Of a stretch of DNA of 64,000 nt, positions 15,301 through 51,398 are shown piece by piece. The notes beneath the pieces were generated by a model, which saw only the letters and a program-made list of their open reading frames with translations, did not search any database and was not told where the DNA came from. The DNA comes from Escherichia coli (lineage in GTDB: Bacteria > Pseudomonadota > Gammaproteobacteria > Enterobacterales > Enterobacteriaceae), in NCBI RefSeq assembly GCF_009931435.1, contig NZ_CP043414.1. One strand, written 5' to 3'. The position numbers and the translations under genes were made by a program. Each line of letters begins with the position of its first letter. The first letter of the stretch is position 1.

Positions 15301-15339
15301 ATCAGCCTGATTTCTCAGGCTGCAACCGGAAGGGTTGGC

Positions 15340-27460: not shown

Positions 27461-27653
27461 TCACAACCCGAAGATGTTTCTTGCGATTCATCATCGTGTT
27501 GCGAAAATTTGAGAGACTCACGAACAACTTTCGTTGTTCAGTGTTTCAATTTTCAGCTTGATCCAGATTTTTAAAGAGCAAATATCTCAAACGTCACCCG
27601 AAGATGAGTTTTGAGATATTAAGGCAGGTGACTTTCACTCACAAACCAGCAAG

Positions 27654-29559: not shown

Positions 29560-29800
29560 GATTGTCTGATAAATTGTTAAAGAGCAGTGCCGCTTCGCTT
29601 TTTCTCAGCGGCGCGGGGTGTGCATAATACGCTTTCCCGCTACAGAGTCAAGCATTTTTTTGCTTTTCTCTGTCGAGATTCTCAGGAGAACCCCGCTGAC
29701 CCGGCGGCGTGTTTGCCGTTGTTCCGTGTCAGTGGTGGCGCATTATAGGGAGTTATTCCGGCCTGACAAGAGGAAATTTAAAATAATTTTCCGAATGCGC
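29560..29800 (-). promoter_or_regulatory. rrnB P1 and P2 promoters with UP element and boxA antiterminator
   Basis: On the transcribed strand: P1 CTTGTCAGGCCGGAATAACTCCCTATAATGCGCCACCACTG preceded by the AT-rich UP element; P2 TTGACT...TATTATGCACACC; boxA TGCTCTTTAACAATTTATCA at about 29567-29586. Confidence 0.8.
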
Positions 29801-29814
29801 AACATTCAACCAAA

Positions 29815-32455: not shown

Positions 32456-32700
32456 TGTAAAGCATCCACAATAGAAGAAGGATGCCGCAGGCTTCATCAA
32501 TATTACGCGATGATGAGAACCAGATGCGACGTTAGCCGGCAGGTCTTCGGGCTTGGAGGGGTATATAAAATACTAAGAGATGATGACTTCCCACCGGATG
32601 GCAGTGTCCGCATAACGCAATCATCGCACCTTTCCTTACCGCTGCGCGTCAGCTCCAGATTTGCACTGGATTCCCTATTAACTCACAGGACCGGCGAGTG
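32456..32700 (-). promoter_or_regulatory. Cobalamin (B12) riboswitch in the btuB leader
   Basis: About 240 nt leader on the minus strand matches the btuB 5' UTR (GCCGGTCCTGTGAGTTAATAGGGAATCCAGTGCGAATCTGGAGCTGACGCGCAGCGGTAAGGAAAGGTGCGATGATTGCG...). Confidence 0.85.
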
Positions 32701-35304: not shown

Positions 35305-36705
35305 ATGCCACATTCCTACGATTACGATGCCATAGTAATAGGTTCCGGCCCCGGCGGCGAAGGCGCTGCAATGGGCCTGGTTAAGCAAGGTGCGCGCGTC
35401 GCAGTTATCGAGCGTTATCAAAATGTTGGCGGCGGTTGCACCCACTGGGGCACCATCCCGTCGAAAGCTCTCCGTCACGCCGTCAGCCGCATTATAGAAT
35501 TTAATCAAAACCCACTTTACAGCGACCATTCCCGACTGCTCCGCTCTTCTTTTGCCGATATCCTTAACCATGCCGATAACGTGATTAATCAACAAACACG
35601 TATGCGTCAGGGATTTTACGAACGTAATCACTGTGAAATATTGCAGGGGAACGCTCGCTTTGTTGACGAGCATACGTTGGCGCTGGATTGCCCGGACGGC
35701 AGCGTCGAAACACTAACCGCTGAAAAATTTGTTATTGCCTGTGGTTCTCGCCCTTATCATCCAACAGATGTTGATTTCACCCATCCACGCATTTACGACA
35801 GCGACTCAATTCTTAGCATGCACCACGAACCGCGCCATGTACTTATCTATGGTGCTGGAGTGATCGGCTGTGAATATGCGTCGATCTTCCGCGGTATGGA
35901 TGTAAAAGTGGATCTGATCAACACCCGCGATCGTCTGCTGGCGTTTCTCGATCAGGAGATGTCAGATTCTCTCTCCTATCACTTCTGGAACAGTGGCGTA
36001 GTGATTCGTCACAACGAAGAGTACGAAAAGATCGAAGGCTGTGACGACGGTGTGATTATGCATCTGAAGTCGGGCAAAAAGCTGAAAGCCGACTGTCTTC
36101 TCTATGCCAACGGTCGTACCGGTAATACCGATTCGCTGGCGTTACAGAACATTGGGCTGGAAACTGACAGTCGTGGACAGCTGAAGGTCAACAGCATGTA
36201 TCAGACCGCACAGCCACACGTTTACGCGGTGGGCGACGTGATTGGTTATCCGAGCCTGGCGTCGGCGGCCTATGACCAGGGGCGCATTGCCGCGCAGGCG
36301 CTGGTGAAAGGCGAAGCCACCGCACATCTGATTGAAGATATCCCTACCGGTATTTACACCATCCCGGAAATCAGCTCTGTGGGCAAAACCGAACAGCAGC
36401 TGACCGCGATGAAAGTGCCATATGAAGTGGGCCGCGCCCAGTTCAAACATCTGGCACGCGCACAAATCGTCGGCATGAACGTGGGCACGCTGAAAATTTT
36501 GTTCCATCGGGAAACAAAAGAGATTCTGGGCATTCACTGCTTTGGCGAGCGCGCTGCCGAAATTATTCATATCGGTCAGGCGATTATGGAACAGAAAGGT
36601 GGCGGCAACACTATTGAGTACTTCGTCAACACCACCTTTAACTACCCGACGATGGCGGAAGCCTATCGGGTAGCCGCGTTAAACGGTTTAAACCGCCTGT
36701 TTTAA
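35305..36705 (+). CDS. sthA: Soluble pyridine nucleotide transhydrogenase SthA (UdhA)
   Basis: 466 aa [59 protein letters not shown]... Confidence 0.97.
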
Positions 36706-37605
36706 CACTTTATCGAAATGGCCATCCATTCTTGCGCGGATGGCCTCTGCCAGCTGCTCATAGCGGCTGCGCAGCGGTGAGCCCGGACGATAAACCAGGC
36801 CAATAGTGCGGCGTGGTTCCGGCTTAATACACGGCAAATAAACAACCCCATCGCGTTTGCGCTCCGGCGGCACAGCCAGTGCAGGCAGTAAAGTGATCCC
36901 GCTACCTGCCGCCACCATGTTGCGCAGAGTTTCCAGGCTGGTCGCGCGGAAGTGTGTATCTTCATCCGCCCCGGCTTCAAAGCAGAAACCCATTGCCTGA
37001 TCGCGCAAACAGTGACCATCTTCCAGCATCAGCAGTTTTTCCCCTGCCAGATCGGCCATCGGTACGCATTCGCGGTTCGCCCACGGGTGATCTTCATAGA
37101 TAGCCAGCAACATTGGCTCATCAAACAACGGCACTTCAATGAATGCTTCGCTCTCTTTCACCAGCGCGAGGATCACGCAATCGAGTTTGCCGCTGTCCAG
37201 TTGCGCCAGTAACTGGTGGGTCTGTGCTTCATGCAGATACATTTCCAGCTTTGGAAAGGTCTGGTGCAGCATCGGGATAATATGCGGTAACAGGTAAGGC
37301 CCAACCGTTGGAATCAAACCAATATGCAGCGGTCCGGACATCGTCTCACCCTGCTGGCTTGCCATCTCTTTAAGGACTTTCACCTCACGCAGCACGGTAC
37401 GCGCCTGATCCACCAGCAGCATTCCCGCCTGGGTGAACAACACTTTACGGCTGGTCCGCTCCAGCAACATCACGCCCAGCTCATCTTCCAGCTTACGAAT
37501 TTGCCCGCTAAGCGTCGGCTGGCTAACGTGGCAGGAGTCTGCCGCACGCCGAAAATGGCGGTGTTCAGCCAATGCCACCAGGTACTCAAGATCACGAATA
37601 TTCAT
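36688..37605 (-). CDS. oxyR: LysR-family hydrogen peroxide-responsive regulator OxyR
   Basis: Track ORF 36688..37635; homologous start [54 protein letters not shown] (305 aa); 3' end overlaps sthA convergently by 18 bp. Confidence 0.97.
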
Positions 37606-37609: not shown

Positions 37610-37700
37610 CATCCTCCATCGCCACGATAGTTCATGGCGATAGGTAGAATAGCAATGAACGATTATCCCTATCAAGCATTCTGACTGATAATTGCTCACA
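37610..37700. promoter_or_regulatory. oxyR-oxyS divergent promoter region with OxyR binding site
   Basis: GATAGGTAGAATAGCAATGAACGATTATCCCTATCAAGCATT (ATAG-n7-CTAT type repeats) followed by a TGATAAT -10 box just upstream of the oxyS start. Confidence 0.7.
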
Positions 37701-37809
37701 GAAACGGAGCGGCACCTCTTTAACCCTTGAAGTCACTGCCCGTTTCGAGAGTTTCTCAACTCGAATAACTAAAGCCAACGTGAACTTTTGCGGATCTCCA
37801 GGATCCGCT
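37701..37809 (+). ncRNA. oxyS: OxyS small regulatory RNA
   Basis: GAAACGGAGCGGCACCTCTTTAACCCTTGAAGTCACTGCCCGTTTCGAGAGTTTCTCAACTCGAATAACTAAAGCCAACGTGAACTTTTGCGGATCTCCAGGATCCGC followed by a T-run; matches oxyS; divergent from oxyR. Confidence 0.9.
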
Positions 37810-37855
37810 TTTTTTTATTCTACAGGCCCACAGCAAGAGAGCCTGATAGTAACAG

Positions 37856-39139
37856 TTACTCAATCCGATCTTTGACAATAAAGAAGTAACACAGCGCCCC
37901 GGTGAATGTCACACAGGCCGCGATAACCAGCGCCAGATTAAACGAGTGCGTGGTATCCACTACCCAACCGGTTACGATCGGAGCAAAGGAAGCAAAAACA
38001 AAACTGCCAAAGTTTTGAATCCCGGCGATGGAAGCCACTTTTGTTTCTGACACCATCACCTGCACCAGTCCCCATGCAGATGTTCCCGCGAAATGCACGC
38101 AGAACAGCGCCATTGAGATAAACGCTACAGCCTGGGCTGGCGAGGAGGATTGCACGACCAGCAACGTGCCTAATGCCGACATCATCAAACCGCAGACAAT
38201 AGCCGTTTTACGCGTCTTCGCCAGGTCGTAGCCTTTTTTCGCCAGCCGATCGACAACAATACCGTTAACCCACATCCCGACCGCCGCCGCGAGGAAAGGA
38301 ATCGCCGCCACCCAACCGGTTTTCGCCAGACTGAAGCCTTGCTCGGCTTGTAAATAACCGGGTAACCACGCGATGTAGAGCCAACCGGTATAATTGACGC
38401 CAGAGAAACCTAAAATCATCCCCCAGGTTGTCCGATGCTTAAACAGCGCCAGCCACTCGCTAAATTGTAATTGTGGACGCGGTTTAACCGGCGCGGAGAG
38501 ATAGGTCCGTTCTTCGTCGGTCAGGACAAACTGCGCCCGGTTGCGATACCACGCGTACCAACAGATCCCAACCAGAATCCCCGCCACGCCGATGATGACG
38601 AACATTGCCCGCCAGCCCCATGCCAGCTGCATCAATACAAGAGCAGGAGGCGCAATAGCCTGACCGATAACGGTAGATGAGTTAAAAATCCCCAGCGCCG
38701 TGCCGCGTTCTTTTTGCGCATACCAGTCGGTGATCGACTTTACTCCCGCAGGCATAAATGGCGCTTCGCCAATACCCAGACCGATACGCATTAAAATAAA
38801 GTGGCTAAAAGAATTAACCATTCCTGTTAATGCCTGCATTAATGACCAGAATATTAAGCCTGCGCCTAAAACTATTCGTGGGCCAAAGCGGTCTAGCAAA
38901 ATACCGGAAGGGAGTTGTGAAAAACCATAAGACAGAGAAAATGCAGAAAGCAAAACGCCAAATTCTGTCGCCGATAATCCTAACTCGCCACGAATCGCTT
39001 CGCCTGCCACGCTCAATGACGAACGGTCGAGGAAATTAACGATCCCCGCCATAAATAATAAAACCAGCGTTACTGTCTGAATACGACGAATCCGTTGCGG
39101 TTTATTACCCGCAACACTGGTTGACACATCAACGTCCAT
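37856..39139 (-). CDS. MFS transporter, anion:cation symporter (ACS) family; sugar-acid (DgoT/ExuT/GudP-like) permease
   Basis: 427 aa, 12 predicted hydrophobic segments; N-terminal LLFMAGIVNFLDRSSLSVAG and GLGIGEAPFMPA motifs typical of ACS-family hexuronate/aldonate transporters. Confidence 0.8.
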   Translation of the reverse strand: MDVDVSTSVAGNKPQRIRRIQTVTLVLLFMAGIVNFLDRSSLSVAGEAIRGELGLSATEFGVLLSAFSLSYGFSQLPSGILLDRFGPRIVLGAGLIFWSLMQALTGMVNSFSHFILMRIGLGIGEAPFMPAGVKSITDWYAQKERGTALGIFNSSTVIGQAIAPPALVLMQLAWGWRAMFVIIGVAGILVGICWYAWYRNRAQFVLTDEERTYLSAPVKPRPQLQFSEWLALFKHRTTWGMILGFSGVNYTGWLYIAWLPGYLQAEQGFSLAKTGWVAAIPFLAAAVGMWVNGIVVDRLAKKGYDLAKTRKTAIVCGLMMSALGTLLVVQSSSPAQAVAFISMALFCVHFAGTSAWGLVQVMVSETKVASIAGIQNFGSFVFASFAPIVTGWVVDTTHSFNLALVIAACVTFTGALCYFFIVKDRIE

Positions 39140-39205
39140 TTTTAGCTCCTTGAGCGGAATTAATCGATTTGCTGACTATTCAGAAAATAATTAAGCGAAC
39201 CGTTA

Positions 39206-40417
39206 TTACCAGTTCCACAATGTGCCATCTTCCAGTCGTGCGACGGGGAGATACGCCGGGTCATACGGATATTTCGCCGCCAGTTTCTCATCGAAAGAAA
39301 TACCCAGCCCCGGTTCATCGCCTGGGTGCATATAACCTTCATCGAAGCGCCAGCTGTGCGGGAAGACTTCAAGCATTTGTTCGGAATAGCCCATGTACTC
39401 CTGAACACCAAAGTTTGGCACCCAGAGGTCAAAATGCAGCGCCGCCGCATGACAAACAGGCGATAAATCTGAAGGGCCATGCGAACCGGTACGTACCTGA
39501 TAAAGCGATGCAAAATCGGCAATCCGTCGCATCCCGGTAATGCCGCCTGCATGGGTAATCGTCGTGCGAATATAGTCAATCAGCTGCTCTTCGATTAACT
39601 GCTTGCAGTCCCAGATACTGTTAAACACTTCACCGACCGCAATCGGCGTCACAGTATGCTGGCGAATCAGACGAAAACATTCCTGGTTCTCGGCAGGCGT
39701 CGGATCTTCCATCCACAACAGGCGGTAATCCTCAATGCTCTTCCCAAAGCGCGCCGCTTCGATAGGAGTCAGGCGATGGTGCATGTCATGCAACAGATGT
39801 TCGTTAAAACCGAACTTATTACGCACCGCTTCAAATAACTTCGGTGTAAAATCGAGATACTTTTCTGAAGACCACAACTGCTCTTCCGGCCACAGGCCTT
39901 TGGTTGCCGGTTCATACGCCAGTCCTTTGCCCTTCGCCAGGCCATAAGTGGTTTGCATACCCGGTACACCGCACTGCACACGAATCGCCTTAAAGCCCAT
40001 CTGCTGGTGCTTTGCATAGTCTTCAAGGACTTCATCAATCGTGCGCCCGGTGGTGTGGCAATAAACCATCACGCCTTCACGAGAAGCCCCACCAAGCAGT
40101 TGATACAATGGCATATTTGCCGCTTTGGCTTTGATATCCCACAACGCCATATCAATGGCAGAAATGGCCGACATCGTGACGGGGCCACGTCGCCAGTAAG
40201 CACCTTTATAAAAGAATTGCCAGATATCTTCGATACGGCTGGCATCGCGGCCAATTAATTGTGGACAAAGATGATCTTTCAGATAAGAAGCGACCGACAA
40301 TTCGCGACCATTTAATGTGGCATCTCCCAATCCACAAATTCCGCTTGCAGTGGTTATTTTAAGCGTAACGAAATTACGTCCTGGGCAAGTAACAAAAACA
40401 TCTGCAGCAATAATTTT
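39206..40417 (-). CDS. Enolase-superfamily dehydratase, D-mannonate dehydratase (ManD/RspA-like) subgroup
   Basis: Track ORF 39206..40480; homologous start [59 protein letters not shown]...; very similar to E. coli RspA as I recall it. Confidence 0.85.
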
Positions 40418-40768
40418 CATTATTGCAATCTCCTGTGTTGTAAATAGACGCTTCAAACTTAATTTTACGCCTACTACCATACAAGAGAGAAAGGGCGATT
40501 ATTCAACCGTGATCACATTAAAAATAAAAATTTCCGCCGAGGAACAAAAATATCCTCAAATCTCACCTACACTATTAACTACCATCGTTAAAACAACGTG
40601 TTAAATAATCACATAACAAATTCCTTTAAGGAAAGGAGTTATAACAACAACAAAAGATAATCATATTTTACTTAATTCAATACGTATCGATAGGTTTATT
40701 TAAAAAGGATTTTTCGGAATGAGAGATGAAAAGAAGATACACAAGCAGGAAGAAATACGATTAATATT

Positions 40769-40904
40769 AGTTGCGGTAAGGGTAGCCGTTCCTCCCTTCC
40801 GCAACCCATTAACCGTTGAAGTCACAGACTATTTCAGGCATTTCTCAACTCAAAATAACGACAGCCAACGTGAACTTTATGGCTCTCCAGGATCTGCTTT
40901 GTTT
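40769..40904 (+). ncRNA. oxyS-like element: diverged second copy (paralog or relic) of the OxyS sRNA
   Basis: AACCGTTGAAGTCACAGACTATTTCAGGCATTTCTCAACTCAAAATAACGACAGCCAACGTGAACTTTATGGCTCTCCAGGATCTGCTTTGTTTT aligns at about 80 percent identity by eye to oxyS 37722-37817; a 5' stem-loop and a TAATAT -10-like box sit upstream; terminator stem is degenerate. Confidence 0.5.
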
Positions 40905-40908
40905 TCCA

Positions 40909-42387
40909 TCAAACAACGGAGCTCAGCGCACTGGCTACCTGTTTAAAGCGAGCAAACCGTCGCCTGAGCATGTGTGCTTTTTCTACATTCGGTTCAAGAC
41001 GAATCACGTTGAGCTGCGTAGCCTTCATGGCCTGTTTGAATCCAGAATAAGCCCCTCCTCCTACTGCCGCACACATTGCAGCCGCTCTACAACCTGACTG
41101 TTCAATATCGACAATTTCAAGAGGCATTTTGCTGGCATCACAAAACATCTGCATCCAGATTCTGGAATGCGTTGGCCCGCCAGAGAAACGAATCGTTTGC
41201 AATGACTTATCAATCTCAATAAGACGGTCCTGATGCAACAAATGAGAAAAGACAACGCCCTGATAAATAGCGTACACCAAATCTTCTCTTTTATGATGCC
41301 CACACAGCCCCAAAAATCCCCCGCTTAATGCCTCATGGTAATTCGAGCCAAACAACCACGGGAAAAAGAGAATATCATTCTGTTTCTCATACCCTCGTTC
41401 CACCCACTCATTAATCACCCGATAACTGTCAGGAAGACCCGGTAAAAATTGCTGCAAGAACCATGTTAAATTACTGGCTGATGTAGGGCTTCCCTCATGG
41501 GCGAAAAATGTACCTGGAATGCTAAATTTCCCCCATACATAGGGATAATCAGAAGGAATAATGCGATCAAAGATTCGCGTTGCAATTGACCAGGTGCCAG
41601 CAACCGCACTTAACGTTGTACTGTCATAGATGCCAGAAGTGAGCGCCGCACCAACGACATCAAAAACACCACCAAAAACAGGCGTTCCGGCGAGAAGCCC
41701 ACATTGGCTGGCTGCTTCAGATGTCACAAACCCAGCTAAATCAGCGGAGCCAATAATATCGGGAACCTTACCCGCAACTTCCTTAATCTCAAATAGGCGA
41801 AAAAGTTCAGCATCATAAGCACTGGTATATTGATTATAAAAATTACTGCCTGAAATATTGGTTTCTTCACAAGCCAGTTTGCCAGTAAGCCGTGAACGTA
41901 TGTAATCATGAACCATCAAAATGGTTCCGATGCGGCCATAATTGTCAGTCTCATGTTTTTTCAACCAATGCAATAGTGCTACAGGGTGCGATGGCCAGAG
42001 CTGTTGCAGACTACGGTGATAACTTTCGCGGTCAATTCCTTGTTCTTTCCAGCTTGCAACCAGTTGTTGTGCGCGAGAATCAGAGGAAACAATGCCGTGT
42101 CGTAAGGGCTTACCTTGCCGGTCGAGCAGGTACAAACCTTTACCATGAGCAGAAAAACTGATGCCATCAATCTGACTCGCAGTAATATTGTTATCTGACA
42201 TCGACAGTGAAATGACCTGGCACGTTACCTTCCATAACGCCTCCATGTCGCGTTCGCAAAAACCAGGACATGGGCTTAACAGAGGTAACGCCTGCGAAGA
42301 GACACCTATTTCACGTCCTTCTGCCGTATAAATTCCCGCTTTGGTTTCTGTACCACCTAAATCGACACCAATAAAATACCGCTCCAT
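40909..42387 (-). CDS. FGGY-family carbohydrate kinase (L-xylulose/3-keto-L-gulonate kinase LyxK-like)
   Basis: 492 aa MERYFIGVDLGGTETKAGIY... with FGGY N- and C-terminal signatures (HDY..., SGGPTHSRIWMQM); family assignment confident, substrate not. Confidence 0.85.
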   Translation of the reverse strand: MERYFIGVDLGGTETKAGIYTAEGREIGVSSQALPLLSPCPGFCERDMEALWKVTCQVISLSMSDNNITASQIDGISFSAHGKGLYLLDRQGKPLRHGIVSSDSRAQQLVASWKEQGIDRESYHRSLQQLWPSHPVALLHWLKKHETDNYGRIGTILMVHDYIRSRLTGKLACEETNISGSNFYNQYTSAYDAELFRLFEIKEVAGKVPDIIGSADLAGFVTSEAASQCGLLAGTPVFGGVFDVVGAALTSGIYDSTTLSAVAGTWSIATRIFDRIIPSDYPYVWGKFSIPGTFFAHEGSPTSASNLTWFLQQFLPGLPDSYRVINEWVERGYEKQNDILFFPWLFGSNYHEALSGGFLGLCGHHKREDLVYAIYQGVVFSHLLHQDRLIEIDKSLQTIRFSGGPTHSRIWMQMFCDASKMPLEIVDIEQSGCRAAAMCAAVGGGAYSGFKQAMKATQLNVIRLEPNVEKAHMLRRRFARFKQVASALSSVV

Positions 42388-42403
42388 GATCCCTCCTTAG
42401 TTT

Positions 42404-43267
42404 CTAAATATTATCCCAGCCGGCAAGGCGCATTTTCTCTTCAATCCATTGACGTGCATGAATAATTTCTAATAGAGGTTCCGTCGCTTTTTCTGTCCAC
42501 ATTTCTATCAGAAACGTTCCGCGATAATTAAGATTACGCAGGATCTTAAATAATTTAATAAAATCTACACACCCTTCACCAAAAGGAACGTCACGAAATT
42601 GCCCTGGAGAATCAGGCGTTACTGGGTACGTATCTTTAAGATGGATTGCGGCAATTCGATCAATCCCCTTTACCAGCTCACTTTCCAGTTCATTACCCCA
42701 TGCGGTCAGATTGCCAACATCCGGATAAACGGTAAACCAAGGGGAATTAATTTTTGTATCCAGGACTTTCCATTTACTAATAGAATTAATAAATGGCGTA
42801 TCCATGATCTCTACAGCACACATAACTTGTGCCGCTGCGGCCTGTTCAGCTGTCCAGGCCATCGCATCTTCAAACCAGGCGATAGTTTCTTCATTCTGCG
42901 GCTCATAATAAACGTCATAGCCTGCCAGTTGGATTGTTCGAATCCCCAAATCCTGCGCCAGGCGTAACGCCTTCAACATAATCGTACGTGCCTGCTGACG
43001 AGTATCTCTATCATGGCTACCAAATGGAAAACGCCGGTGAGCAGACAGGCACATTGTCGGAATACGGATCCCCGTTTGCTGAATGGCGCTAATAAGCTCC
43101 ATACGCTCGGTGAGCGACCAGTCCAGGCGGGCGAGTCGTTCATCATTCTCATCTACCGACATCTCAACAAAATCAAAACCGCAAGATTTAGCCAGGGCTA
43201 GTTTCTCTACCCAACTGGTATTCCTGGGTAGCGCTTTTTCATAAATACCTAACGGGTGGCGTCGCAT
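42404..43267 (-). CDS. Sugar-phosphate 3-epimerase of the xylose-isomerase-like TIM-barrel family (L-ribulose-5-phosphate 3-epimerase SgbU/UlaE-like)
   Basis: 287 aa MRRHPLGIYEKALPRNTSWVEKLALAKSCGFDFVEMSVDENDERLARLDWS...IRTIQLAGYDVYYE...HLKDT...FLIEMW; close resemblance to SgbU/UlaE as I recall them. Confidence 0.8.
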   Translation of the reverse strand: MRRHPLGIYEKALPRNTSWVEKLALAKSCGFDFVEMSVDENDERLARLDWSLTERMELISAIQQTGIRIPTMCLSAHRRFPFGSHDRDTRQQARTIMLKALRLAQDLGIRTIQLAGYDVYYEPQNEETIAWFEDAMAWTAEQAAAAQVMCAVEIMDTPFINSISKWKVLDTKINSPWFTVYPDVGNLTAWGNELESELVKGIDRIAAIHLKDTYPVTPDSPGQFRDVPFGEGCVDFIKLFKILRNLNYRGTFLIEMWTEKATEPLLEIIHARQWIEEKMRLAGWDNI

Positions 43268-44343
43268 TATTTTCCCTCACGAGTGATCAATTGTTGTTGA
43301 AAGATTTTCCGGCTCTTATTCATGTCACGCTGCAACTGCCATTTTTGTTTGATGAATTTAAATGCCAGTGCGGCGATCAATGTGATCCCCCATACCGCCA
43401 GATTGAAATGCAAACTAAGTCCCAACAGACTAAGGCCGGTAGCAATAACCTGAAGCACAAGTAAGGCACAAAAAACATGACTGACTTTACCCGCCCCACC
43501 GAATGGATCTGTGCCTCCCAATACAATTGCAAGAACCGTCAAGAGCAGATAGGAATCGCCATAGCCCATACGCGCCGAATTAAATCGCGCGAGCATAATA
43601 AGACCTGCTAATACACACAACATGCTGGATATAGCATATATAGCAATTAATACGCGGTCGGTGCGAATACCGCTAAACCATGTGGCGTTAATATTACTGC
43701 CACACATATAAATCGTTTTTCCCGTACGGGTTTTGCCGAGGAACAGAGCTAAAGCAACGGTGGTGACGATAAAAATTATCATCGGTACTGGGATCCCCAT
43801 GATAACTTCAGACCCAATACTGCGGACTACTGGTGGCATACCACTTAAAGCTGCCCCCTTAGTCAGGTAAATACCGATACCACTAATAATGGTCATGCTA
43901 CCCAATGTGACCAAAATAGGGTGAGCGCCTATATGAGAAATAATTGACCCAGTAATAGCTCCAATGATGATGGCAATAAGCATCGCCCCGACAATAGCCA
44001 GGAAGAGCCAAAACAACTGACTACCTGTAGATGCATCTGCGGGTACATATTGAATCAACAGCCAGGCCATAAACAGGCTGGTCAGATTCGCAGTACCGAT
44101 GATTGCCAGATTGAGCCCCCCGCTCAACATGGGTATAAACATCGCAAACGTGAGCAACCCAAGCTCTGGCAATTGAAATGCAATGCTCAGAAAAGTATTG
44201 CCGGTGAAAAAACGCCCCGGCATTACCAGACTAAATAACACCACCGCAATAAAACATATTGATAATAAGCCTGAACTGGTACCATCTAGTGGAAAAAATA
44301 TCCGCTTGTTCATTTCGATCCTCCCGTTAGACGAAACCAACAT
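43267..44343 (-). CDS. ABC transporter permease (CUT2, RbsC/LsrD-like)
   Basis: 358 aa polytopic membrane protein; stop/start overlaps neighbours within the ABC operon. Confidence 0.8.
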   Translation of the reverse strand: MLVSSNGRIEMNKRIFFPLDGTSSGLLSICFIAVVLFSLVMPGRFFTGNTFLSIAFQLPELGLLTFAMFIPMLSGGLNLAIIGTANLTSLFMAWLLIQYVPADASTGSQLFWLFLAIVGAMLIAIIIGAITGSIISHIGAHPILVTLGSMTIISGIGIYLTKGAALSGMPPVVRSIGSEVIMGIPVPMIIFIVTTVALALFLGKTRTGKTIYMCGSNINATWFSGIRTDRVLIAIYAISSMLCVLAGLIMLARFNSARMGYGDSYLLLTVLAIVLGGTDPFGGAGKVSHVFCALLVLQVIATGLSLLGLSLHFNLAVWGITLIAALAFKFIKQKWQLQRDMNKSRKIFQQQLITREGK

Positions 44344-45319
44344 CAGTTTCTTTACGTTTTTTGTAATGGGTCACACAAATCGCCGAGACAATAACCACTC
44401 CAATAACGATATTGACGAAATAACTCGAGATGCCAATCAAATTAAGGCCGTTTTTAAGAATACCGATAAGAAATACGCCCATAAGCGTACCAATGACCGT
44501 ACCACGTCCGCCTGATAAACTGGCACCGCCCAATACCGCTGCAGCCAGCACATCCAACTCTCCGCCAACCAATGCATTCGGCACAACTTCACTCATACGA
44601 TAAGCTTGCAGCATTCCACCAATTGCTGCAGCGGCACCAAGATAACCATAAGCAAACAGATAAATTAGCGACACCCGAATCCCAATACGTCTTGCTGATT
44701 CGGTATTCCCTCCCACGGCATAAAGCTGACGCCCAATATGGGTTTTGTTCATTATCATCCACGTCAGAAATGCCATTCCCAGCATAACCACTAACGGTAA
44801 TCCGATCTGGTAATCTTCTCCGCCAAATTCAAAACTCAGGAAAGAACGCTGCGTAATCCACCAATCCGGTAAATCGTAAATACTGTGGCCATTAGTCAAC
44901 CACATCAACATACCGAACAGTAGCGACTGCATACTAATCGTAATGATGATGGAAACGACATTAAGGTAATAAATAAGAATAGCGTTTATCAAACCAAAAA
45001 TGATGCCAAGAAAAACAGCAAACACCAGACAGAAAAATGGATTTGATAGCGTTTCATTAAGCAGTAACGACGCCACAACATATTGCACAACCGAAGCTAC
45101 TGCTGCAAAAGAGATATCAATTCCGCCAGTAACCAATACGACAAATAATCCGAGGGCGAAAATACCCGTTACGGCATAACTTTCCGAGAGATCGAGCAAG
45201 TTCTGTATTGATAAAAACTCATCGCTCATGATGGAAAAAAATACCAGCATGAGAACAATGACCCATCCTAACCAAGCTTCGACTGAACGAGGAAACCGCA
45301 GCCGCATAAAGCTAACCAT
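44327..45319 (-). CDS. ABC transporter permease (CUT2, RbsC/LsrC-like)
   Basis: 330 aa polytopic membrane protein with GGIDISFAAV and GGxSLxGGRGT motifs typical of ribose-type permeases. Confidence 0.8.
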   Translation of the reverse strand: MVSFMRLRFPRSVEAWLGWVIVLMLVFFSIMSDEFLSIQNLLDLSESYAVTGIFALGLFVVLVTGGIDISFAAVASVVQYVVASLLLNETLSNPFFCLVFAVFLGIIFGLINAILIYYLNVVSIIITISMQSLLFGMLMWLTNGHSIYDLPDWWITQRSFLSFEFGGEDYQIGLPLVVMLGMAFLTWMIMNKTHIGRQLYAVGGNTESARRIGIRVSLIYLFAYGYLGAAAAIGGMLQAYRMSEVVPNALVGGELDVLAAAVLGGASLSGGRGTVIGTLMGVFLIGILKNGLNLIGISSYFVNIVIGVVIVSAICVTHYKKRKETDVGFV

Positions 45320-46829
45320 TAATCACCTCCGCCAACTGCTGCTCGGTATAATTCGAAGGCAACAGCTCATTAATAATCTTTCCGCGCTTCATATGAAAAA
45401 TACGATCGCAGTTATAATAAGCTTCTGGTGCTTCATCAGTAATTAATATCACTGAAATACCCACACCTGAAAGCCGATGAATAAGCTGGTAAATACTATC
45501 TTTTGCGCCAATATCTACACCTACCGTTGGCGCATCCAGAATTAAAACCTTAGGTCGTGTTAAAATCCATTTAGCCAGGACAACCTTTTGTTGATTGCCG
45601 CCAGATAGCGTTGAAAGTGGATTATTTGGATCGGTGACTTTAATATCCAAATCCTGGATCCACTCCTTGACTAAGGTTTCTTTTCGATTTTCATCAATAA
45701 ACCCCGATGCCGTCTTTAAACGATCCAGAATCGAGAGCACCATATTATCGCTGATAGATTGGGGTAATACGGCCCCCAGTGTCAGGCGATCTTCTGAAAC
45801 ATATGCTATTCCCAGTTTTACCGCATGCGTGTTGTCTTTAATTGTAACGGGCTTACCTTCCAGATAAATATCACCACTATCTGGTCGAGTAATACCGAAA
45901 AGACTCAATGCTAATTCAGTTCTCCCCGCACCAAGTAAACCACACAATCCCAGAACCTCGCCCTGGTGTAGTTTTAGAGAAACATCTTCAAATTGCCCTT
46001 TTCTGCATAATTTGTTTAGTTCAAGGACTACTTTGCCTTCAACGCTATTTGGTAGCTTCTTCTGGTGGACTATAGTTTTTCCGGTCATTAACTCAGTAAT
46101 ATCGCCCGGAGAAAGTTGATTGGCAGCCCACGTTCCAATTATCTCTCCATCACGGATGACCGTAATCCGATCTGAAATTTCCTTAACTTCATCAAGGCGG
46201 TGGCTAACAAAAACTACGGTAATATTTTTATCGCGTAAGTAATTCACTGTGCGTAGTAATTGATTAACTTCTGTACGCGTCAATGATGCCGTTGGCTCGT
46301 CCATGATGACTAACCGGGCATCGGCAATCAGAGCCCGGCAAATCGCGACCTGTTGGCGTTGTGCAATCGGCAAATGTTGTACTAACGCATCAGGATCGAG
46401 ATTGAATTGCAGCTCCTGAATTATTTTCTGCGATACATCTCGAAGTTGTTTTTTTCTGTGCAGCCCTAAATATCCCTTCAGGTTGTATTCAAAAGCGATA
46501 TTTTCAGCAACAGAAAGATTTGGGAATAAAGAAAGATCCTGATATATCACCTGAATACCCAGTTCCCGAGCTTTATCAGGAGAAAGACGAGTCCAGGACT
46601 TACCATCTATAATAATTTCACTTCCCGAATCAGGGACATAAACACCACACAGCGTTTTGATCAGAGTACTTTTACCACACCCATTCGCACCAGCAAGACA
46701 ATGAACCTCACCTTTATTTAAGGTAAGATTGATATTCTTTAGAGCCCTATGGCCACCGAAACTTTTCGTTAGTGACCTTAGCGTCACTAATGGTTGCTCC
46801 GCATTCTTCTCTATAATATGAGGCATCAT
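45312..46829 (-). CDS. Sugar ABC transporter ATP-binding protein with duplicated ABC domains (RbsA/LsrA-like)
   Basis: 505 aa; first Walker A GANGCGKST, LSGGNQQK-type signature, second degenerate P-loop GLLGAGRTE as in CUT2 ATPases. Confidence 0.85.
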   Translation of the reverse strand: MMPHIIEKNAEQPLVTLRSLTKSFGGHRALKNINLTLNKGEVHCLAGANGCGKSTLIKTLCGVYVPDSGSEIIIDGKSWTRLSPDKARELGIQVIYQDLSLFPNLSVAENIAFEYNLKGYLGLHRKKQLRDVSQKIIQELQFNLDPDALVQHLPIAQRQQVAICRALIADARLVIMDEPTASLTRTEVNQLLRTVNYLRDKNITVVFVSHRLDEVKEISDRITVIRDGEIIGTWAANQLSPGDITELMTGKTIVHQKKLPNSVEGKVVLELNKLCRKGQFEDVSLKLHQGEVLGLCGLLGAGRTELALSLFGITRPDSGDIYLEGKPVTIKDNTHAVKLGIAYVSEDRLTLGAVLPQSISDNMVLSILDRLKTASGFIDENRKETLVKEWIQDLDIKVTDPNNPLSTLSGGNQQKVVLAKWILTRPKVLILDAPTVGVDIGAKDSIYQLIHRLSGVGISVILITDEAPEAYYNCDRIFHMKRGKIINELLPSNYTEQQLAEVING

Positions 46830-46892
46830 AATATTCCTGAATACGACTAAAGGAATTCCGGGTCAAATTTGACCCGGTGATTTACGGTAAAA

Positions 46893-47897
46893 TTACAAGC
46901 CTAGCTTCACTAAACGTCGTGTATTTTCAAGATCGAGCTTTTCTGGATTATCACTATAAATAGTGTTGTTATTAACCTTGATCTCGCCCATATCACCGAT
47001 TTTTACACCGTCTTTAATAGGTTCACCGTTCATCATTGCCGTCGCAACCTGGACAAAAACCTTACCCGCAATCATAGGGTTTGAAATATATCCCCCATCA
47101 ATGGCACCTTTTTCGAGTAGCTTAATTCCCTGACCTGGAGTGAAGGTTCCAAAAACGCAAATTGCATCATTTTTCTTCCGCTTATCAATAGCACGCCCCG
47201 CACCAATTGGTCCTTGTGAACCAAATGACATAATGCCTTTAAGATCTTTATATTTAGACATTAAATCGTTCGTCGTGCGCATTGAATCATCCACCGACTC
47301 AGCAACACCAAAACGATCTTCAACCAACGTCATATTTGGATAATGTTCTTTTTGATAGGCAATCGCGGCATTGGCCCAGTCATTTACCAAAGGCACAGTC
47401 AGACTGCCGACAAACATGGCGTATTTACCTTCTTCGCCCATACACTTCGCCATATCTTTCATATGATTGGCACCCATTGTCTGGGTATTTAACAACTCAA
47501 AATCCCAATCTGCATTTTTTTGATCTGGTGATTCGTGGGTAATAACTTTAATACCGGCTTCTTGTGCACGCTTAAGTACAGGTTCAAGAACCTTTGCATC
47601 GTTAGGAACAACACCAATAACATCCACTTTTCGTGCAATTAAATCTTCAATCGCCCGAACCTGTTCAGCTGGATCTGCCGTTGTAGGGCCGACCTGCCAT
47701 GCATCAACCCCCAATAGTTTTCCTTCATTTTTAATGCCTTGTTCCATCACATTAAACCAGGGAATTCCACCGACTTTTACTACTACCCCCATCGTAAAAG
47801 GTTTATTCGCTTTTTGTGATGTTACAGTCTGATCAGCCCATGCAGCAGTGGAAGATAATACGGTAGCAATAAGGCAGGGTAAGATTAATTTTTTCAT
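46893..47897 (-). CDS. Periplasmic sugar-binding protein (PBP type I, LsrB/RbsB-like) with signal peptide
   Basis: 334 aa MKKLILPCLIATVLSSTAAWA (signal peptide) followed by a two-lobe sugar-binding fold pattern. Confidence 0.8.
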   Translation of the reverse strand: MKKLILPCLIATVLSSTAAWADQTVTSQKANKPFTMGVVVKVGGIPWFNVMEQGIKNEGKLLGVDAWQVGPTTADPAEQVRAIEDLIARKVDVIGVVPNDAKVLEPVLKRAQEAGIKVITHESPDQKNADWDFELLNTQTMGANHMKDMAKCMGEEGKYAMFVGSLTVPLVNDWANAAIAYQKEHYPNMTLVEDRFGVAESVDDSMRTTNDLMSKYKDLKGIMSFGSQGPIGAGRAIDKRKKNDAICVFGTFTPGQGIKLLEKGAIDGGYISNPMIAGKVFVQVATAMMNGEPIKDGVKIGDMGEIKVNNNTIYSDNPEKLDLENTRRLVKLGL

Positions 47898-48019
47898 CGT
47901 AATTTCCTTAAGAAATAGTTCAGGTGTCAGGAAAACTCGATATAATATCGACCTGACTATTTATATAATTTATAATCCCTTAGGCATTGATTAATAATTT
48001 AGACAATAAATAACGCCTA

Positions 48020-48829
48020 TTATTTATCAACCTCCACAATGTTTAATTGTGGAAATTGTGTTCGATACCGAGTATCTGTACAAACATTAGTCACCAGAAT
48101 ATCGATTTCATCCAGCGTGCATATTTTACTAAATGCATACTGTTCAAACTTAGTGGAGTCGACCAGCAATATTTTTTGTCCTGACACCTGAAGCATCACC
48201 TGTTTAAGTCTGGCATTAATTTCACTGCCATCGCGGACACCATTCCCCAGATTCAACCCCTGGCATGAAAAGAAAAAACTGTTGATTTGAAAATTTCGGA
48301 TCGCACTCTCTGCAACCGGGCCATGAAAATCATCATGTCGCTCAGAATACTCACCACCGATACCAATAATTCGAACTCGATCACGGCAAGCTAACGCCTG
48401 AATTATCCGTAATGAATTTGTAACTACGGTAACATCTATATCGGGAATTTGACGAGCTAAAAACCAACAAGTACTACTGTTATCCATTAAAATACAATCA
48501 CCAGGGTGAATAAATTGCAATGCGGCCTTCGCAATTCTGGCTTTTATATCAGGATTTTCTTCAGTCCGTTTACGGAATGATTCCGCACGATCGATACTAT
48601 TATCTTGCCACGCATTATCGGCGAGCATAACCGGAGCGCTATCAGATGAATCCAGAGCGACCGCGCCACCAAAGCTACGGATTAACTTTTTGTTGCGCTC
48701 CAGTACCGTTAAATCCCGACGAATTGTCTCAGGAGACGCTTTAAATAATCGTGATAATTCAGTTACCCGCACAGCACCTTGTTTTTGTACATGTGCGCAT
48801 ATCATTTTATGGCGCTCTGCCTGCAACAT
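48020..48829 (-). CDS. DeoR/GlpR-family transcriptional regulator
   Basis: 269 aa; N-terminal HTH (VTELSRLFKASPETIRRDLTVLE) and C-terminal DeoR sugar-phosphate-binding domain; first gene of the minus-strand operon. Confidence 0.85.
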   Translation of the reverse strand: MLQAERHKMICAHVQKQGAVRVTELSRLFKASPETIRRDLTVLERNKKLIRSFGGAVALDSSDSAPVMLADNAWQDNSIDRAESFRKRTEENPDIKARIAKAALQFIHPGDCILMDNSSTCWFLARQIPDIDVTVVTNSLRIIQALACRDRVRIIGIGGEYSERHDDFHGPVAESAIRNFQINSFFFSCQGLNLGNGVRDGSEINARLKQVMLQVSGQKILLVDSTKFEQYAFSKICTLDEIDILVTNVCTDTRYRTQFPQLNIVEVDK

Positions 48830-49282
48830 AGTATCGGTCCGTTATTATCAAATTAGCATGCTTATATAATTAACTGTTCCCTCATAAAATAAAGTGATAG
48901 GAATCAAGATTCATTTTATAATTATAATCGCAAACAGGAATGGTGATCTTTATCACAAATTAAATTGAGAACACTCTACTATTTGACATTACTTTGAGAT
49001 ATCGGTCACTAAATAAGTCTTATTCTGCCATCTAACGAAAAATTTAAATACAAAAACAAAAATAATCGGGCATAGCAATCGCTTCCATTCATGACCGAAT
49101 ACGCCCGAATAAAACCGTTTATACCCACTTATCCTCTTTCGTTGCCTTCTTACATGCCTTGAATATTTTACATTTCTTATATTCAGCGTAATTTAGGAAA
49201 CATAATTTATGAGCAAAAAAAGCCCAAACTCAAAAGTTAAAGTTTATTTATATAATACATACAGATTATCGTGGAGTTAAAA

Positions 49283-49975
49283 ATGGATATGCTAAAGGAA
49301 AAAGTTCTTGCTGCGAATTTATCATTACCCCTTCATCAGTTAGTGACGTTTACCTGGGGAAATGTTAGTGGTGTTGATCGCGAAAAAGGTGTCATGGTTA
49401 TTAAACCTTCTGGGGTCGAATACAGCCAAATGGGCATTGCAGATATGGTGGTAGTGGATTTACAAAGTGGTGAAGTTATTGATGGACACAGGAAACCCTC
49501 TTCAGACACCGATACTCATCTGGCGCTATACCGTGCTTTCCCGGATATTGGTGGTATCGTTCATACCCATTCCCGACACGCCACAATATGGGCTCAGGCC
49601 GGAAAAGATCTCACGGCCTTTGGGACAACCCACGCTGATTATTTCTACGGCACTATCCCCTGTACACGCCCCATGAAGGATGACGAAATTAATGGACAAT
49701 ATGAATATGAAACGGGGCGAGTGATTATTGAAACGTTCAGACAACGAGAAATATCTCCCGCTGACATTCCGGCTGTTTTAGTAAACAGTCATGGCCCCTT
49801 TGCCTGGGGAACTGATCCCGCGAACGCCGTGCATAACGCCGTTGTACTTGAAGAAATTGCCTATATGAATCTCTTTACACAACAACTACAGCCCCATCTT
49901 ACGGCTATTCAACAGCCTCTACTGGATAAGCATTTTTTACGCAAGCATGGTGCCAATGCTTATTACGGGCAGTAA
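49283..49975 (+). CDS. L-ribulose-5-phosphate 4-epimerase (class II aldolase fold; AraD/SgbE/UlaF paralog)
   Basis: Track ORF 49271..49975; about three-quarters identical by eye to AraD ([31 protein letters not shown]...[14 protein letters not shown]...HGPFAWG...[18 protein letters not shown]); start chosen by alignment, alternative ATGs at 49271 and 49289. Confidence 0.85.
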
Positions 49976-50024: not shown

Positions 50025-51398
50025 TTACTCCAACCGCGCCTGCGCAAAAGCAATCGCCTGCGCCACCTGCTGCGGTGAGACGCCGCCTTTTGCCGCACGC
50101 TTGTCGAGGCACGATTGCAGCGACAGAATCGGATAGACATCTTCGCCAATCACCTGACTGAATTTCTGCAACTCACTGAGCGGCAGATCTTCCAGCGGTT
50201 TGCCCTGACGAATGGCTTCCACCACCGCTTCACCAACAATATGGTGCGCCTCGCGGAACGGCACACCTTTCGCCACCAGGTAATCCGCCAGTTCAGTGGC
50301 GTTCGCATACCCCTGCTGCGCCGCTTCCTGGCAACGTGGGCGTTTCACCTGAATGCCGTCCAGCACCAGCGCCGCCATATGCAGGCAGTCCAGCCAGGTA
50401 TCGAGCGCGTCGAATAAGCCCTCTTTGTCTTCCTGCATATCTTTGTTGTAAGCCAGCGGCAAACCTTTCAGCGTCATCATCATGCCAGTCAACGCGCCCT
50501 GAACACGACCGCATTTACCCCGAATCAGCTCCAGCGCATCCGGGTTTTTCTTCTGCGGCATTAATGATGAACCGGAAGTCACGCGATCAGAAAGCTCCAC
50601 AAAACCCGCTTCGCCGGTGTTAAAGAAAATCAGATCTTCGGCAAAACGCGACAAATGCACCATACCGATAGCGGCGGCAGAAAGCAGTTCCAGCACGTGG
50701 TCGCGGTCAGAAACGCTGTCGAGACTGTTACGGGTCGCCGAGGCAAAGCCCAGCCAGCCTGCTAACTGTTCACGGTCGATTTCATAAGCCGTTCCCGCCA
50801 GTGCGCCACAGCCTAACGGGCTGACATCCAGACGCTTAAGCGCATCCTGCAAACGACTTTCATCACGCGCCAGCATCTCAACATAGGCCAGGCACCAGTG
50901 CGCGAACGTCACCGGCTGGGCGCGTTGCAGGTGAGTGTAACCAGGCATTACCGCGTCCTGATTATTCTGCGCGGTCTCGACCAGAGCGGATTGTAACTGT
51001 CGGTTAGCCGTCAGTAACTCGCTAACGGTATCTTTGCACCACAGTTTCAGGTCAGTCGCTACCTGATCATTACGGCTACGCCCGGTGTGCAGTTTTTTGC
51101 CTAACTGGCCCACTTTGTCGATCAGTTTGCCTTCTACCCAGCTATGGATATCTTCAGCGTCGCTTTCAAGAATTTGTTGTGGTCTGGCGCGAACATCTTC
51201 CAGCAGCACATTGAGCGCCTCTTCCAGTTGCACCTGTTCTTCTGCGGTTAACACGCCTACCGTTACCAGCGCTTTGGACCAGGCCACAGAGCCAACAATA
51301 TCCTGCTCCGCCAGACGGTAATCAAAGCGCAGTGAGTCGTTGAATTGTTTAAACCGTTGATCTGCTGCCTGGGTAAAACGCCCGCCCCAAAGTGCCAT
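50025..51398 (-). CDS. argH: Argininosuccinate lyase
   Basis: 457 aa [45 protein letters not shown]... Confidence 0.97.

What the first reader, a model, noticed from the sequence alone, without database searches (positions are those of the whole stretch)
40690..40904. Diverged second copy of the OxyS sRNA inside the island
The segment 40808-40904 aligns over nearly its whole length with the 3' two-thirds of oxyS (37722-37817), at roughly 80 percent identity by eye, in the same orientation. It is preceded by a GC stem-loop (TTGCGGTAAGGGTAGCCGTTCCTCCCTTCCGCAA) in the position of the oxyS 5' stem and a TAATAT -10-like box. The A-rich linker that binds Hfq in OxyS is retained, but the terminator stem is degenerate (GGCTCTCC / GGATCTGC). 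Like oxyS relative to oxyR, it is divergent from the neighbouring dehydratase-MFS operon. It could be a functional OxyS paralog, or the relic of a donor genome's oxyS brought in with the island, marking an old recombination junction. It would also imply the dehydratase-MFS module was inserted between two oxyS copies. Upstream similarity to the OxyR-binding region is weak beyond a shared CGATAGG.
Basis: seen in the sequence. Interest (0 to 1): 0.8.

Follow-up and report, generated by a model that had tools for sequence, protein, structure and literature searches.

The report
Decaying oxyS remnant at island junction
A 105-base stretch between two sugar-utilisation gene modules is a real leftover of the OxyS small-RNA gene, but it has no promoter, its structure is broken and it drifts neutrally, so it records how the island was assembled and is very unlikely to be a second working regulator.

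Summary
The similarity is real. Window 40801-40905 aligns with oxyS nt 12-116 at 84/106 identities (79%, E 8e-20).

By every test available here it does not look like a working OxyS gene:
- It scores 30-41 bits on the Rfam OxyS model. The family threshold is 75 and genuine copies score 133-139.
- It folds no better than shuffled sequence, and all three stems are damaged. The terminator hairpin is -0.9 to -5.8 kcal/mol against -12.4 for oxyS.
- It has no OxyR site and no promoter by the consensus scan. The DNA up to about 40772 is the manD upstream region found in genomes that lack this copy.
- Between two E. coli lineages it differs at 8/97 sites. The true oxyS differs at 2/109, and other intergenic DNA at about 6%.

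Its position explains it. In Citrobacter and Atlantibacter the orthologous kinase-ABC-epimerase module lies between argH and the genuine oxyS, with oxyS directly 3' of the kinase, exactly where this copy sits.

It is therefore the 5'-truncated oxyS that once bordered that module. It was cut off when oxyS plus the MFS-manD module came to lie upstream.

It occurs in 145 of 5426 complete E. coli genomes and is never the only oxyS. Interest is low.

The parts
37627..37663 (.). OxyR-binding site of the divergent oxyR/oxyS promoters. It is the only such site in the window.
   Evidence: A search for the motif ATAGn7CTATn7ATAGn7CTAT with up to 3 mismatches gives a single hit in 64 kb.
37701..37809 (+). 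Genuine oxyS gene
   Evidence: Rfam RF00035 at 133.4 bits over the full-length model. It forms the canonical three-stem fold with z = -3.3.
37856..40420 (-). Module A: MFS transporter (37856-39139) and D-mannonate dehydratase ManD (39206-40420)
   Evidence: ORFs and RefSeq annotation of identical loci. The module is present in about 1859 of 5426 E. coli genomes.
40421..40772 (.). manD upstream (regulatory) region. It belongs to module A and is not derived from oxyS.
   Evidence: It is colinear with the manD-argH spacer of A-only genomes UTI89 and B7A. blastn identity is 72-75% over window 40574-40741/40772.
40771..40804 (.). GC-rich hairpin at the junction. On the minus strand it extends to 40759-40816. 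Its origin is unassigned and it overlaps the first bases of the relic.
   Evidence: dG is -19.5 kcal/mol on the plus strand and -26.7 on the minus strand. The minus-strand region has z = -3.3. There are 0/26 differences between alleles over 40782-40807. It is not repeated elsewhere in E. coli genomes.
40801..40905 (+). oxyS relic (pseudo-oxyS). It is homologous to oxyS nt 12-116, including the 3' arm of stem a, stem-loop b, the linker, and the terminator with its interrupted T-run.
   Evidence: blastn gives 79% identity, E 8e-20. Rfam OxyS scores are 30.1, 35.5 and 41.1 bits for the three alleles. Lineage divergence is 8/97. Terminator dG is -0.9 to -5.8 kcal/mol.
40909..49975 (-). Module B: FGGY kinase, L-ribulose-5-P 3-epimerase, two ABC permeases, ATPase, binding protein and DeoR regulator on the minus strand, plus an araD-like 4-epimerase on the plus strand at 49271-49975
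   Evidence: ORFs and RefSeq annotation. The module is present in 146 of 5426 E. coli genomes. It is syntenic with Citrobacter and Atlantibacter loci that lie between argH and oxyS.
50025..51398 (-). argH, the conserved right flank of the variable locus

Best explanation
The segment 40801-40905 is a non-functional remnant (pseudogene) of an oxyS gene.

The oxyS-argH spacer is a variable locus. In Citrobacter and Atlantibacter, the genuine oxyS lies immediately 3' of the FGGY kinase of a kinase/epimerase/ABC-transporter module (module B), and that module reaches argH. The E. coli haplotype in the window descends from such an arrangement.

A recombination event then placed an intact oxyR-oxyS plus the MFS-manD module (module A) on the oxyR side. 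It was anchored by homology on one side and illegitimate on the other. The illegitimate joint fell within the first dozen bases of the oxyS that bordered module B. That copy lost its OxyR-dependent promoter and its first ~11 nt, which form part of the 5' arm of stem-loop a.

Without a promoter, and redundant with the intact copy, it has since accumulated substitutions at the neutral rate. These have broken stem b and the terminator.

Steps shown here: the homology, the lack of OxyS features, the neutral rate of change, the orthologous position of real oxyS in other genera, and the restriction to the A+B haplotype.

Steps inferred: the recombination mechanism, and the order of events (A arriving in a B-type chromosome, or B arriving in an A-type chromosome).
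For: 1. Homology is certain: 84/106 identities, E 8e-20.
2. Position: in C. amalonaticus (L020), Citrobacter spp. (L006, L009) and Atlantibacter (L008), the order is argH-araD-DeoR-SBP-ATPase-permease-permease-epimerase-kinase-oxyS-oxyR. The oxyS there scores 95, 90.6 and 70.9 bits and lies about 60 nt 3' of the kinase stop.
3. No promoter: the only OxyR motif in the window is at 37627-37663. The best match upstream of the relic has 7/16 mismatches, which is the typical best match in random 271-nt stretches of the window. The sigma-70 scan finds nothing. DNA up to about 40772 is homologous to the manD upstream region of genomes that have no relic.
4. Structure is lost: fold z-scores are +0.6 and -0.15 against -3.3 for real OxyS. 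The covariance-model alignment has 9 of 26 pairs non-canonical. Terminator dG is -0.9, -3.2 and -5.8 kcal/mol for the three alleles against -12.4 for oxyS. Model scores are 30-41 bits against a threshold of 75.
5. No purifying selection: the window and strain 144 differ at 8/97 sites in the relic and 2/109 in oxyS (Fisher p = 0.049). Other intergenic DNA differs at 5.7-7.5%, and flanking third-codon positions at 2.6-5.2%.
6. Distribution: it is found in 145 of 5426 complete E. coli genomes, always together with modules A and B and always alongside an intact oxyS.
Against: - No expression data were available, so a low-level transcript cannot be excluded. A weak -10-like TAATAT with a 4/6 -35 lies at a plausible distance.
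- A low covariance-model score alone is not decisive. The apparently native oxyS of Atlantibacter, which has a conserved OxyR-box promoter, also scores only 30.9 bits.
- The rate comparison rests on few substitutions (8 against 2) and essentially three alleles.
- No genome with module B alone next to an Escherichia-type oxyS was found. No kinase homolog lies between 69% and 98% identity. The ancestral or donor haplotype is therefore inferred and has not been observed.
- The 20% divergence implies an event older than the divergence of the carrier lineages, and this cannot be dated here.
Confidence: 0.85

Rival explanations
1. It is a functional OxyS paralog or a new sRNA. A transcript would start near 40770 from the TAATAT box, use the new 5' hairpin in place of stem-loop a, and keep the OxyS linker and loop-c sequences for Hfq binding and target pairing.
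For: - The linker (AAUAACGACAGCCAACGUGAAC) and the loop-c sequence CUCCAGG are largely retained.
- The hairpin at 40771-40804 is stable (-19.5 kcal/mol) and does not vary over 40782-40807 between alleles.
- TACACA-N18-TAATAT gives an 8/12 match to the promoter consensus (sequence).
Against: - The promoter scan threshold is not reached and there is no OxyR site.
- The terminator is almost gone (-0.9 kcal/mol in the window allele) and the U-run is interrupted.
- The fold is no better than shuffled sequence, and the two alleles fold differently.
- The relic has 8.2% divergence between lineages against 1.8% for oxyS.
- Retained motifs are expected from descent alone.
Confidence: 0.05
2. The region has acquired a cis-acting role on the opposite strand. 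The long minus-strand hairpin (40816-40759), with the antisense of the relic, would terminate or stabilise the module-B operon transcript, or form part of the manD leader. The kinase has lost the separate terminator hairpin that is present in Citrobacter.
For: - The minus strand of 40730-40915 folds with z = -3.3.
- The hairpin dG is -26.7 kcal/mol and is followed by a moderately U-rich tail.
- In Citrobacter a GCCTGGC...GCCAGGC hairpin lies between the kinase and oxyS. Here it is missing, and the kinase stop codon begins 4 nt after the end of the relic's T-run (40905 to 40909).
Against: - The terminator scan does not flag it; the loop is 11 nt and the U-tract is poor.
- Only the hairpin is involved. 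The oxyS-derived 40816-40905 is not needed for it and is the fastest-changing part.
- This reading is compatible with the relic explanation and is not an alternative to it.
Confidence: 0.12
3. It is an attachment-site duplicate. Module A would be an integrative element that inserted site-specifically into the 3' part of oxyS, as islands do at tRNA and tmRNA genes, leaving the displaced gene fragment at its far end.
For: The geometry fits. A 5'-truncated copy in the same orientation flanks module A on the side away from the intact gene.
Against: - Module A has no integrase or other mobility gene; it holds only the MFS transporter and ManD.
- The roughly 1700 genomes with module A alone have no oxyS fragment at its far end.
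- The two repeats are only 79% identical.
- Real oxyS occupies this very position next to module B in other genera.
Confidence: 0.03
4. It is a chance resemblance or an alignment artefact.
For: None.
Against: E = 8e-20 within the window, and the alignment score lies 38 standard deviations above shuffles. The Rfam OxyS model also finds it independently, E 3.5e-4 in 701 nt.
Confidence: 0.001

Closest known systems
OxyS sRNA (Rfam RF00035), the OxyR-induced, Hfq-binding regulator encoded divergently from oxyR
   Same: There is clear sequence descent over oxyS nt 12-116. The orientation is the same, and the linker and loop-c motifs are retained. It occupies the position next to the module-B kinase that oxyS holds in Citrobacter and Atlantibacter.
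   Different: It has no OxyR site or promoter and lacks nt 1-11. Stems a, b and c are disrupted and the terminator is degenerate. It scores 30-41 bits against a threshold of 75 and evolves at the neutral rate. It lies 3 kb from oxyR, with an intact oxyS in between.
Gene fragments left at the borders of genomic islands (for example, partial tRNA or tmRNA gene copies at the far end of integrated elements)
   Same: A truncated copy of a small-RNA gene in the same orientation marks the distal border of inserted DNA (module A).
   Different: There is no integrase and no conserved core repeat. The fragment is absent from most genomes that carry module A, so it is better explained by recombination between two alternative occupants of the oxyS-argH spacer.
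Homology-facilitated illegitimate recombination (one end anchored by homology, the other joined without it); named from general knowledge and not tested here
   Same: One side of the composite locus is ordinary E. coli core sequence (oxyR, or argH from its stop codon onwards). The internal joint at about 40773-40800 shows no homology to either partner.
   Different: The mechanism is inferred from the end product only. No donor or recipient haplotype with module B alone was found.

Membership tests
OxyS sRNA (RF00035) | Sequence homology to oxyS | tested here: met
   84/106 identities, E 8e-20. Identity is 79-81% to E. coli oxyS and 69-76% to Citrobacter oxyS.
OxyS sRNA (RF00035) | Covariance-model score at or above the curated gathering threshold (75 bits) | tested here: not met
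   30.1, 35.5 and 41.1 bits for the three alleles. Genuine copies in the same genomes score 133-139.5 bits.
OxyS sRNA (RF00035) | Three stem-loops (a, b, c) separated by a single-stranded linker | tested here: not met
   The minimum-free-energy folds lack all three stems. The z-scores are +0.6 and -0.15, against -3.3 and -3.4 for E. coli and Citrobacter OxyS. In the model alignment 5/15, 2/4 and 2/7 pairs are non-canonical.
OxyS sRNA (RF00035) | OxyR-dependent promoter shared divergently with oxyR | tested here: not met
   The only OxyR motif is at 37627-37663. The best match upstream of the relic has 7/16 mismatches, as in random sequence. The upstream DNA is manD-associated, and oxyR is 3.2 kb away.
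OxyS sRNA (RF00035) | Rho-independent terminator (GC stem followed by a U-run), which also forms the Hfq-binding 3' end | tested here: not met
   dG is -0.9, -3.2 and -5.8 kcal/mol against -12.4 for oxyS, and the U-run is interrupted (UUUGUUUU). The terminator scan does not report it.
OxyS sRNA (RF00035) | Purifying selection on the RNA between lineages | tested here: not met
   8/97 differences in the relic against 2/109 in oxyS between the same two genomes. This equals or exceeds intergenic and third-codon rates.
OxyS sRNA (RF00035) | Peroxide-induced transcript of about 110 nt that binds Hfq | not testable with these tools
   No expression or binding data are accessible. No paper describing a second oxyS copy was found.
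Integrase-mediated island with attachment-site duplication | Integrase or recombinase gene within the element, and near-identical flanking repeats in all carriers | tested here: not met
   Module A encodes only the MFS transporter and ManD. The repeats are 79% identical. A-only genomes lack the distal repeat.

The most novel reading that the evidence does not exclude
The oxyS-derived 3' domain (linker plus loop c), fused to a new 5' hairpin, is transcribed from the weak TAATAT promoter. It would act as a strain-specific, OxyR-independent sRNA or Hfq sponge, possibly linked to expression of the neighbouring sugar-acid genes. This would be an example of sRNA birth by exaptation of a pseudogene.
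Probability: 0.05. Interest if true: 0.55.

Novelty: new member of a known kind. Interest (0 to 1): 0.2.

Why it matters
As a regulator it most likely does not matter. The intact oxyS next to oxyR is present in every carrier genome.

Its value is as a molecular scar:
- It shows that the oxyS-argH spacer is a shared slot for alternative carbohydrate modules in Escherichia, Citrobacter and Atlantibacter.
- It shows that two such modules were stacked in one E. coli haplotype (2.7% of complete genomes) by a recombination that cut through an sRNA gene.
- It gives a rare, datable example of how quickly an sRNA gene loses its structure once it is disconnected from its promoter.
- It is a practical warning for annotation. 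Similarity searches with oxyS will hit it, while the Rfam threshold correctly rejects it. The same threshold also rejects some apparently genuine, divergent oxyS genes (Citrobacter sp. Cu233, Atlantibacter).

Tried and rejected
1. **Search for a lineage where this variant is the working oxyS.**
   - A metagenome scan with the relic-specific pattern TTTCTCAACTCAAAATAACNNNNGCCAA returned only four E. coli contigs with the same A+B island.
   - A distant blastn search against 5426 E. coli genomes found no intermediate alleles. No genome has the relic as its only oxyS.
2. **Search for a close donor of module B.** The kinase has no homolog between 69% and 98% identity among 5.8 billion proteins. 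The species-representative scan gave relatives of 70% identity or less. The exact-protein look-up gave the same E. coli arrangement.
3. **Context of manD homologs outside E. coli.** The best cluster representative turned out to be the rspA-rspB locus of Enterobacter, a paralogous context that was not informative.
4. **Idea that A-only genomes also keep a vestige of oxyS at the end of module A.** Rejected. The alignment with oxyS is not better than shuffles (p = 0.24). The hairpin there belongs to a REP/BIME element (naRNA4-like hit of 29 bits).
5. **Idea that the relic is full-length from oxyS +1.** The covariance-model alignment pairs 40776-40794 with nt 1-18, but MAFFT and blastn give different registers. 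Similarity of 40731-40806 to the oxyS promoter and 5' end is not significant (p = 0.75). This is left open.
6. **A 75-codon ORF (40719-40946, plus strand) through the relic.** Rejected as coding. It runs antisense into the kinase gene, its Shine-Dalgarno-like AAGGA is lost in the other allele, and most allele differences inside the relic are non-synonymous.
7. **Literature searches** for a second or pseudo-oxyS found nothing relevant.

Full report
**Locus.** The window is an E. coli chromosome segment with this gene order:
- rrn, murI, btuB, trmA, fabR, sthA, then oxyR (minus strand, 36688-37605).
- The genuine oxyS (plus strand, 37701-37809; Rfam RF00035, 133.4 bits).
- 'Module A': an MFS transporter (37856-39139) and the D-mannonate dehydratase ManD (39206-40420), both on the minus strand.
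- A 488-nt spacer.
- 'Module B': FGGY kinase (40909-42387), L-ribulose-5-P 3-epimerase, two ABC permeases, ATPase, binding protein and DeoR regulator on the minus strand, plus an araD-like 4-epimerase on the plus strand.
- argH (50025-51398).

In K-12, oxyS and argH are separated by only about 55 nt, which contain a terminator hairpin.

- blastn of oxyS against the whole window gives one secondary hit. oxyS nt 12-116 align with 40801-40905 on the same strand, 84/106 identities, E 8e-20.
- The local score is 99, against 15.4 +/- 2.2 for shuffles.
- The hairpin at 40771-40804, the TAATAT at 40762-40767 and the degenerate terminator are all present as described.

**It fails the tests for a working OxyS gene.**
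- *Model score.* The Rfam model gives 30.1 bits for the window allele, and 35.5 and 41.1 bits for the two other alleles found. The threshold is 75, and the true oxyS of the same genomes scores 133-139.5.
- *Fold.* E. coli and Citrobacter OxyS fold into the canonical three stem-loops with z = -3.3 and -3.4. The copy folds no better than shuffled sequence (z = +0.6, -0.15, +1.3), and its two alleles fold differently.
- *Base pairs.* In the model alignment 5/15, 2/4 and 2/7 pairs of stems a, b and c are non-canonical.
- *Terminator.* The hairpin is worth -0.9, -3.2 or -5.8 kcal/mol in the three alleles, against -12.4 for oxyS. The U-run is interrupted.
- *Promoter.* The consensus scan reports no promoter or terminator on this strand.
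- *OxyR site.* The OxyR motif occurs once in the window, at the real oxyR-oxyS promoter (37627-37663). The best match upstream of the copy has 7 of 16 mismatches, which is typical of random 271-nt windows.

**The upstream DNA belongs to manD.** Genomes that carry module A alone (UTI89, B7A) have a colinear manD upstream region up to about window 40772-40781. After that come a REP/BIME element and argH, with no oxyS-like sequence. blastn across 5426 genomes confirms 72-75% identity over window 40574-40741/40772 in such genomes.

The oxyS-derived part therefore begins at about 40801. About 28 nt (40773-40800) are of unassigned origin and form most of the hairpin. Three methods gave three different registers for any homology 5' of 40801, and none is significant.

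**It evolves neutrally.** The window and strain 144 were compared:

| Region | Differences |
|---|---|
| Flanking core genes | 2-5% |
| True oxyS | 2/109 |
| Relic | 8/97 (8.2%) |
| Rest of this spacer | 4.5-7.5% |
| DeoR-araD spacer | 5.7% |
| Third-codon positions, kinase | 2.6% |
| Third-codon positions, manD | 5.2% |

- Relic against oxyS gives Fisher p = 0.049. Relic against other intergenic DNA gives p = 0.36.
- Several substitutions hit the terminator stem in ways that differ between alleles, without compensation.

**Position explains origin.**
- A scan of species-representative genomes with the kinase found 21 loci.
- In Citrobacter amalonaticus, two other Citrobacter species and Atlantibacter, the whole of module B is syntenic and lies between argH and oxyR.
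- In those genomes an oxyS lies directly 3' of the kinase and convergent with it. In the three Citrobacter loci it scores 95, 90.6 and 70.9 bits and sits about 60 nt from the kinase stop. In Atlantibacter the model matches only nt 65-109 (30.9 bits). All four carry the conserved OxyR-box promoter.
- That is exactly where the relic sits in the window.
- The other module-B proteins are 81-95% identical to the Citrobacter and Atlantibacter orthologs, which is only somewhat below the flanking core genes (oxyR 94-97%, argH 92-96%). The kinase is only 67-70% identical.
- Among the sequences compared, the relic is closest to E. coli oxyS: 79-81%, against 69-76% for Citrobacter and about 60% for Atlantibacter.

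**Distribution.**
- The relic is in 145 of 5426 complete E. coli genomes. Nine carry the window allele, 135 the strain-144 allele and one an intermediate allele.
- Module B is in 146 genomes and module A in about 1859.
- The 145 relic-bearing genomes also carry the manD upstream region of module A, and module B has essentially the same distribution (146 genomes). Every genome searched but one has an oxyS-like match, and in the non-carriers listed it lies at about 80% identity to the relic.
- Four metagenome contigs and one Logan contig with the relic are the same E. coli haplotype.

**Interpretation.**
- The relic is the oxyS that once bordered module B. A recombination stacked modules A and B. 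It was anchored by homology on one flank and illegitimate at about 40773-40800. It left that oxyS copy without its promoter and first ~11 nt, while the intact oxyS stayed next to oxyR.
- The data do not show whether module A with oxyR-oxyS entered a B-type chromosome, or module B with part of its oxyS entered an A-type chromosome.
- No haplotype with module B alone was found in E. coli, and no kinase homolog lies between 69% and 98% identity in 5.8 billion proteins.
- The relic is 20% diverged from oxyS, and the adjoining manD distal region is 25-28% diverged from A-only genomes. This indicates a haplotype older than the split of the carrier lineages. That is an inference, and no date was computed.

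**Caveats.**
- No expression data could be consulted.
- A low model score is not proof on its own. The apparently native oxyS of Atlantibacter scores 30.9 bits and that of Citrobacter sp. Cu233 scores 70.9 bits.
- The rate test rests on ten substitutions in total.
- The hairpin at the junction is stable, does not vary between alleles, and is stronger on the minus strand (-26.7 kcal/mol; region z = -3.3). It may terminate the module-B operon or structure the manD leader. This is compatible with the relic reading and concerns mostly sequence that is not derived from oxyS.

**Verdict.** The feature is real and its homology was correctly recognised. It is a promoterless, structurally collapsed, neutrally drifting oxyS remnant that marks the joint between two alternative occupants of the oxyS-argH slot. 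It is ordinary as biology and of modest use as an evolutionary marker and an annotation caveat.

Noticed in passing
window 40909-42387 (FGGY kinase); loci L005-L025: The E. coli kinase is only 66-70% identical to its orthologs in Citrobacter, Atlantibacter, Serratia and Yersinia. The other seven module-B proteins are 81-95% identical to Citrobacter and Atlantibacter. Nothing between 69% and 98% identity exists in 5.8 billion proteins. The branch is long, yet within E. coli most differences fall at third-codon positions (13 of 17), so the gene looks functional.
   Followed up: partly
L009 11545-11642 (-) and L008 11539-11583 (-): Apparently native oxyS genes next to oxyR, with conserved OxyR-box promoters, fall below the Rfam threshold. 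Citrobacter sp. Cu233 lacks stem-loop b (a 12-nt deletion; 70.9 bits). Atlantibacter sp. RC6 matches the model only over nt 65-109 (30.9 bits). The OxyS 5' domain is evolutionarily labile.
   Followed up: partly
window 40759-40816, minus strand: A long imperfect hairpin (-26.7 kcal/mol; surrounding region z = -3.3) lies about 90-150 nt downstream of the kinase stop and upstream of manD. The kinase lacks the separate terminator hairpin seen in Citrobacter. It may be a terminator or a leader structure.
   Followed up: partly
window 40719-40946 (+): A 75-codon ORF runs through the relic and antisense into the kinase 3' end. Allele differences are mostly non-synonymous and the Shine-Dalgarno-like AAGGA is lost in the other allele, so it is judged spurious.
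   Followed up: partly
window 37719-37721: The window's genuine oxyS has UUU where K-12 and UTI89 have UUUU in loop a. This is a 1-nt length polymorphism in the fhlA-pairing loop region.
   Followed up: no
L003 (UTI89) 6465-6545; L004 (B7A) equivalent: Genomes with module A only carry a REP/BIME element (naRNA4-like, 29 bits) between the manD upstream region and argH. This is where the A+B haplotype has the relic and module B.
   Followed up: partly
window 37817/37818 and K-12 L026: Module A begins immediately after the oxyS terminator U-run. It replaces the 55-nt K-12 spacer, including the GCCCGGC...GCCAGGC hairpin. Citrobacter has a similar hairpin (GCCCGGC/GCCTGGC...GCCAGGC) between oxyS and the kinase.
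   Followed up: partly
H47, NZ_CP195442.1 (strain 23AR0303): An IS1 insertion splits the FGGY kinase in one carrier genome, which suggests that module B is dispensable.
   Followed up: no
L029 versus window 29800-32500 (murI-btuB): In a human-gut metagenome contig this segment is 18.8% diverged from the window, while neighbouring genes differ by 1-4%. The btuB/murI region is strongly mosaic.
   Followed up: no
window 15274-15335 (-), 27468-27576 (-), 54559-54652 (+): Other Rfam hits above threshold: P26, StyR-44 (in the rrn spacer) and naRNA4 (a REP element). All are expected features of E. coli chromosomes.
   Followed up: no
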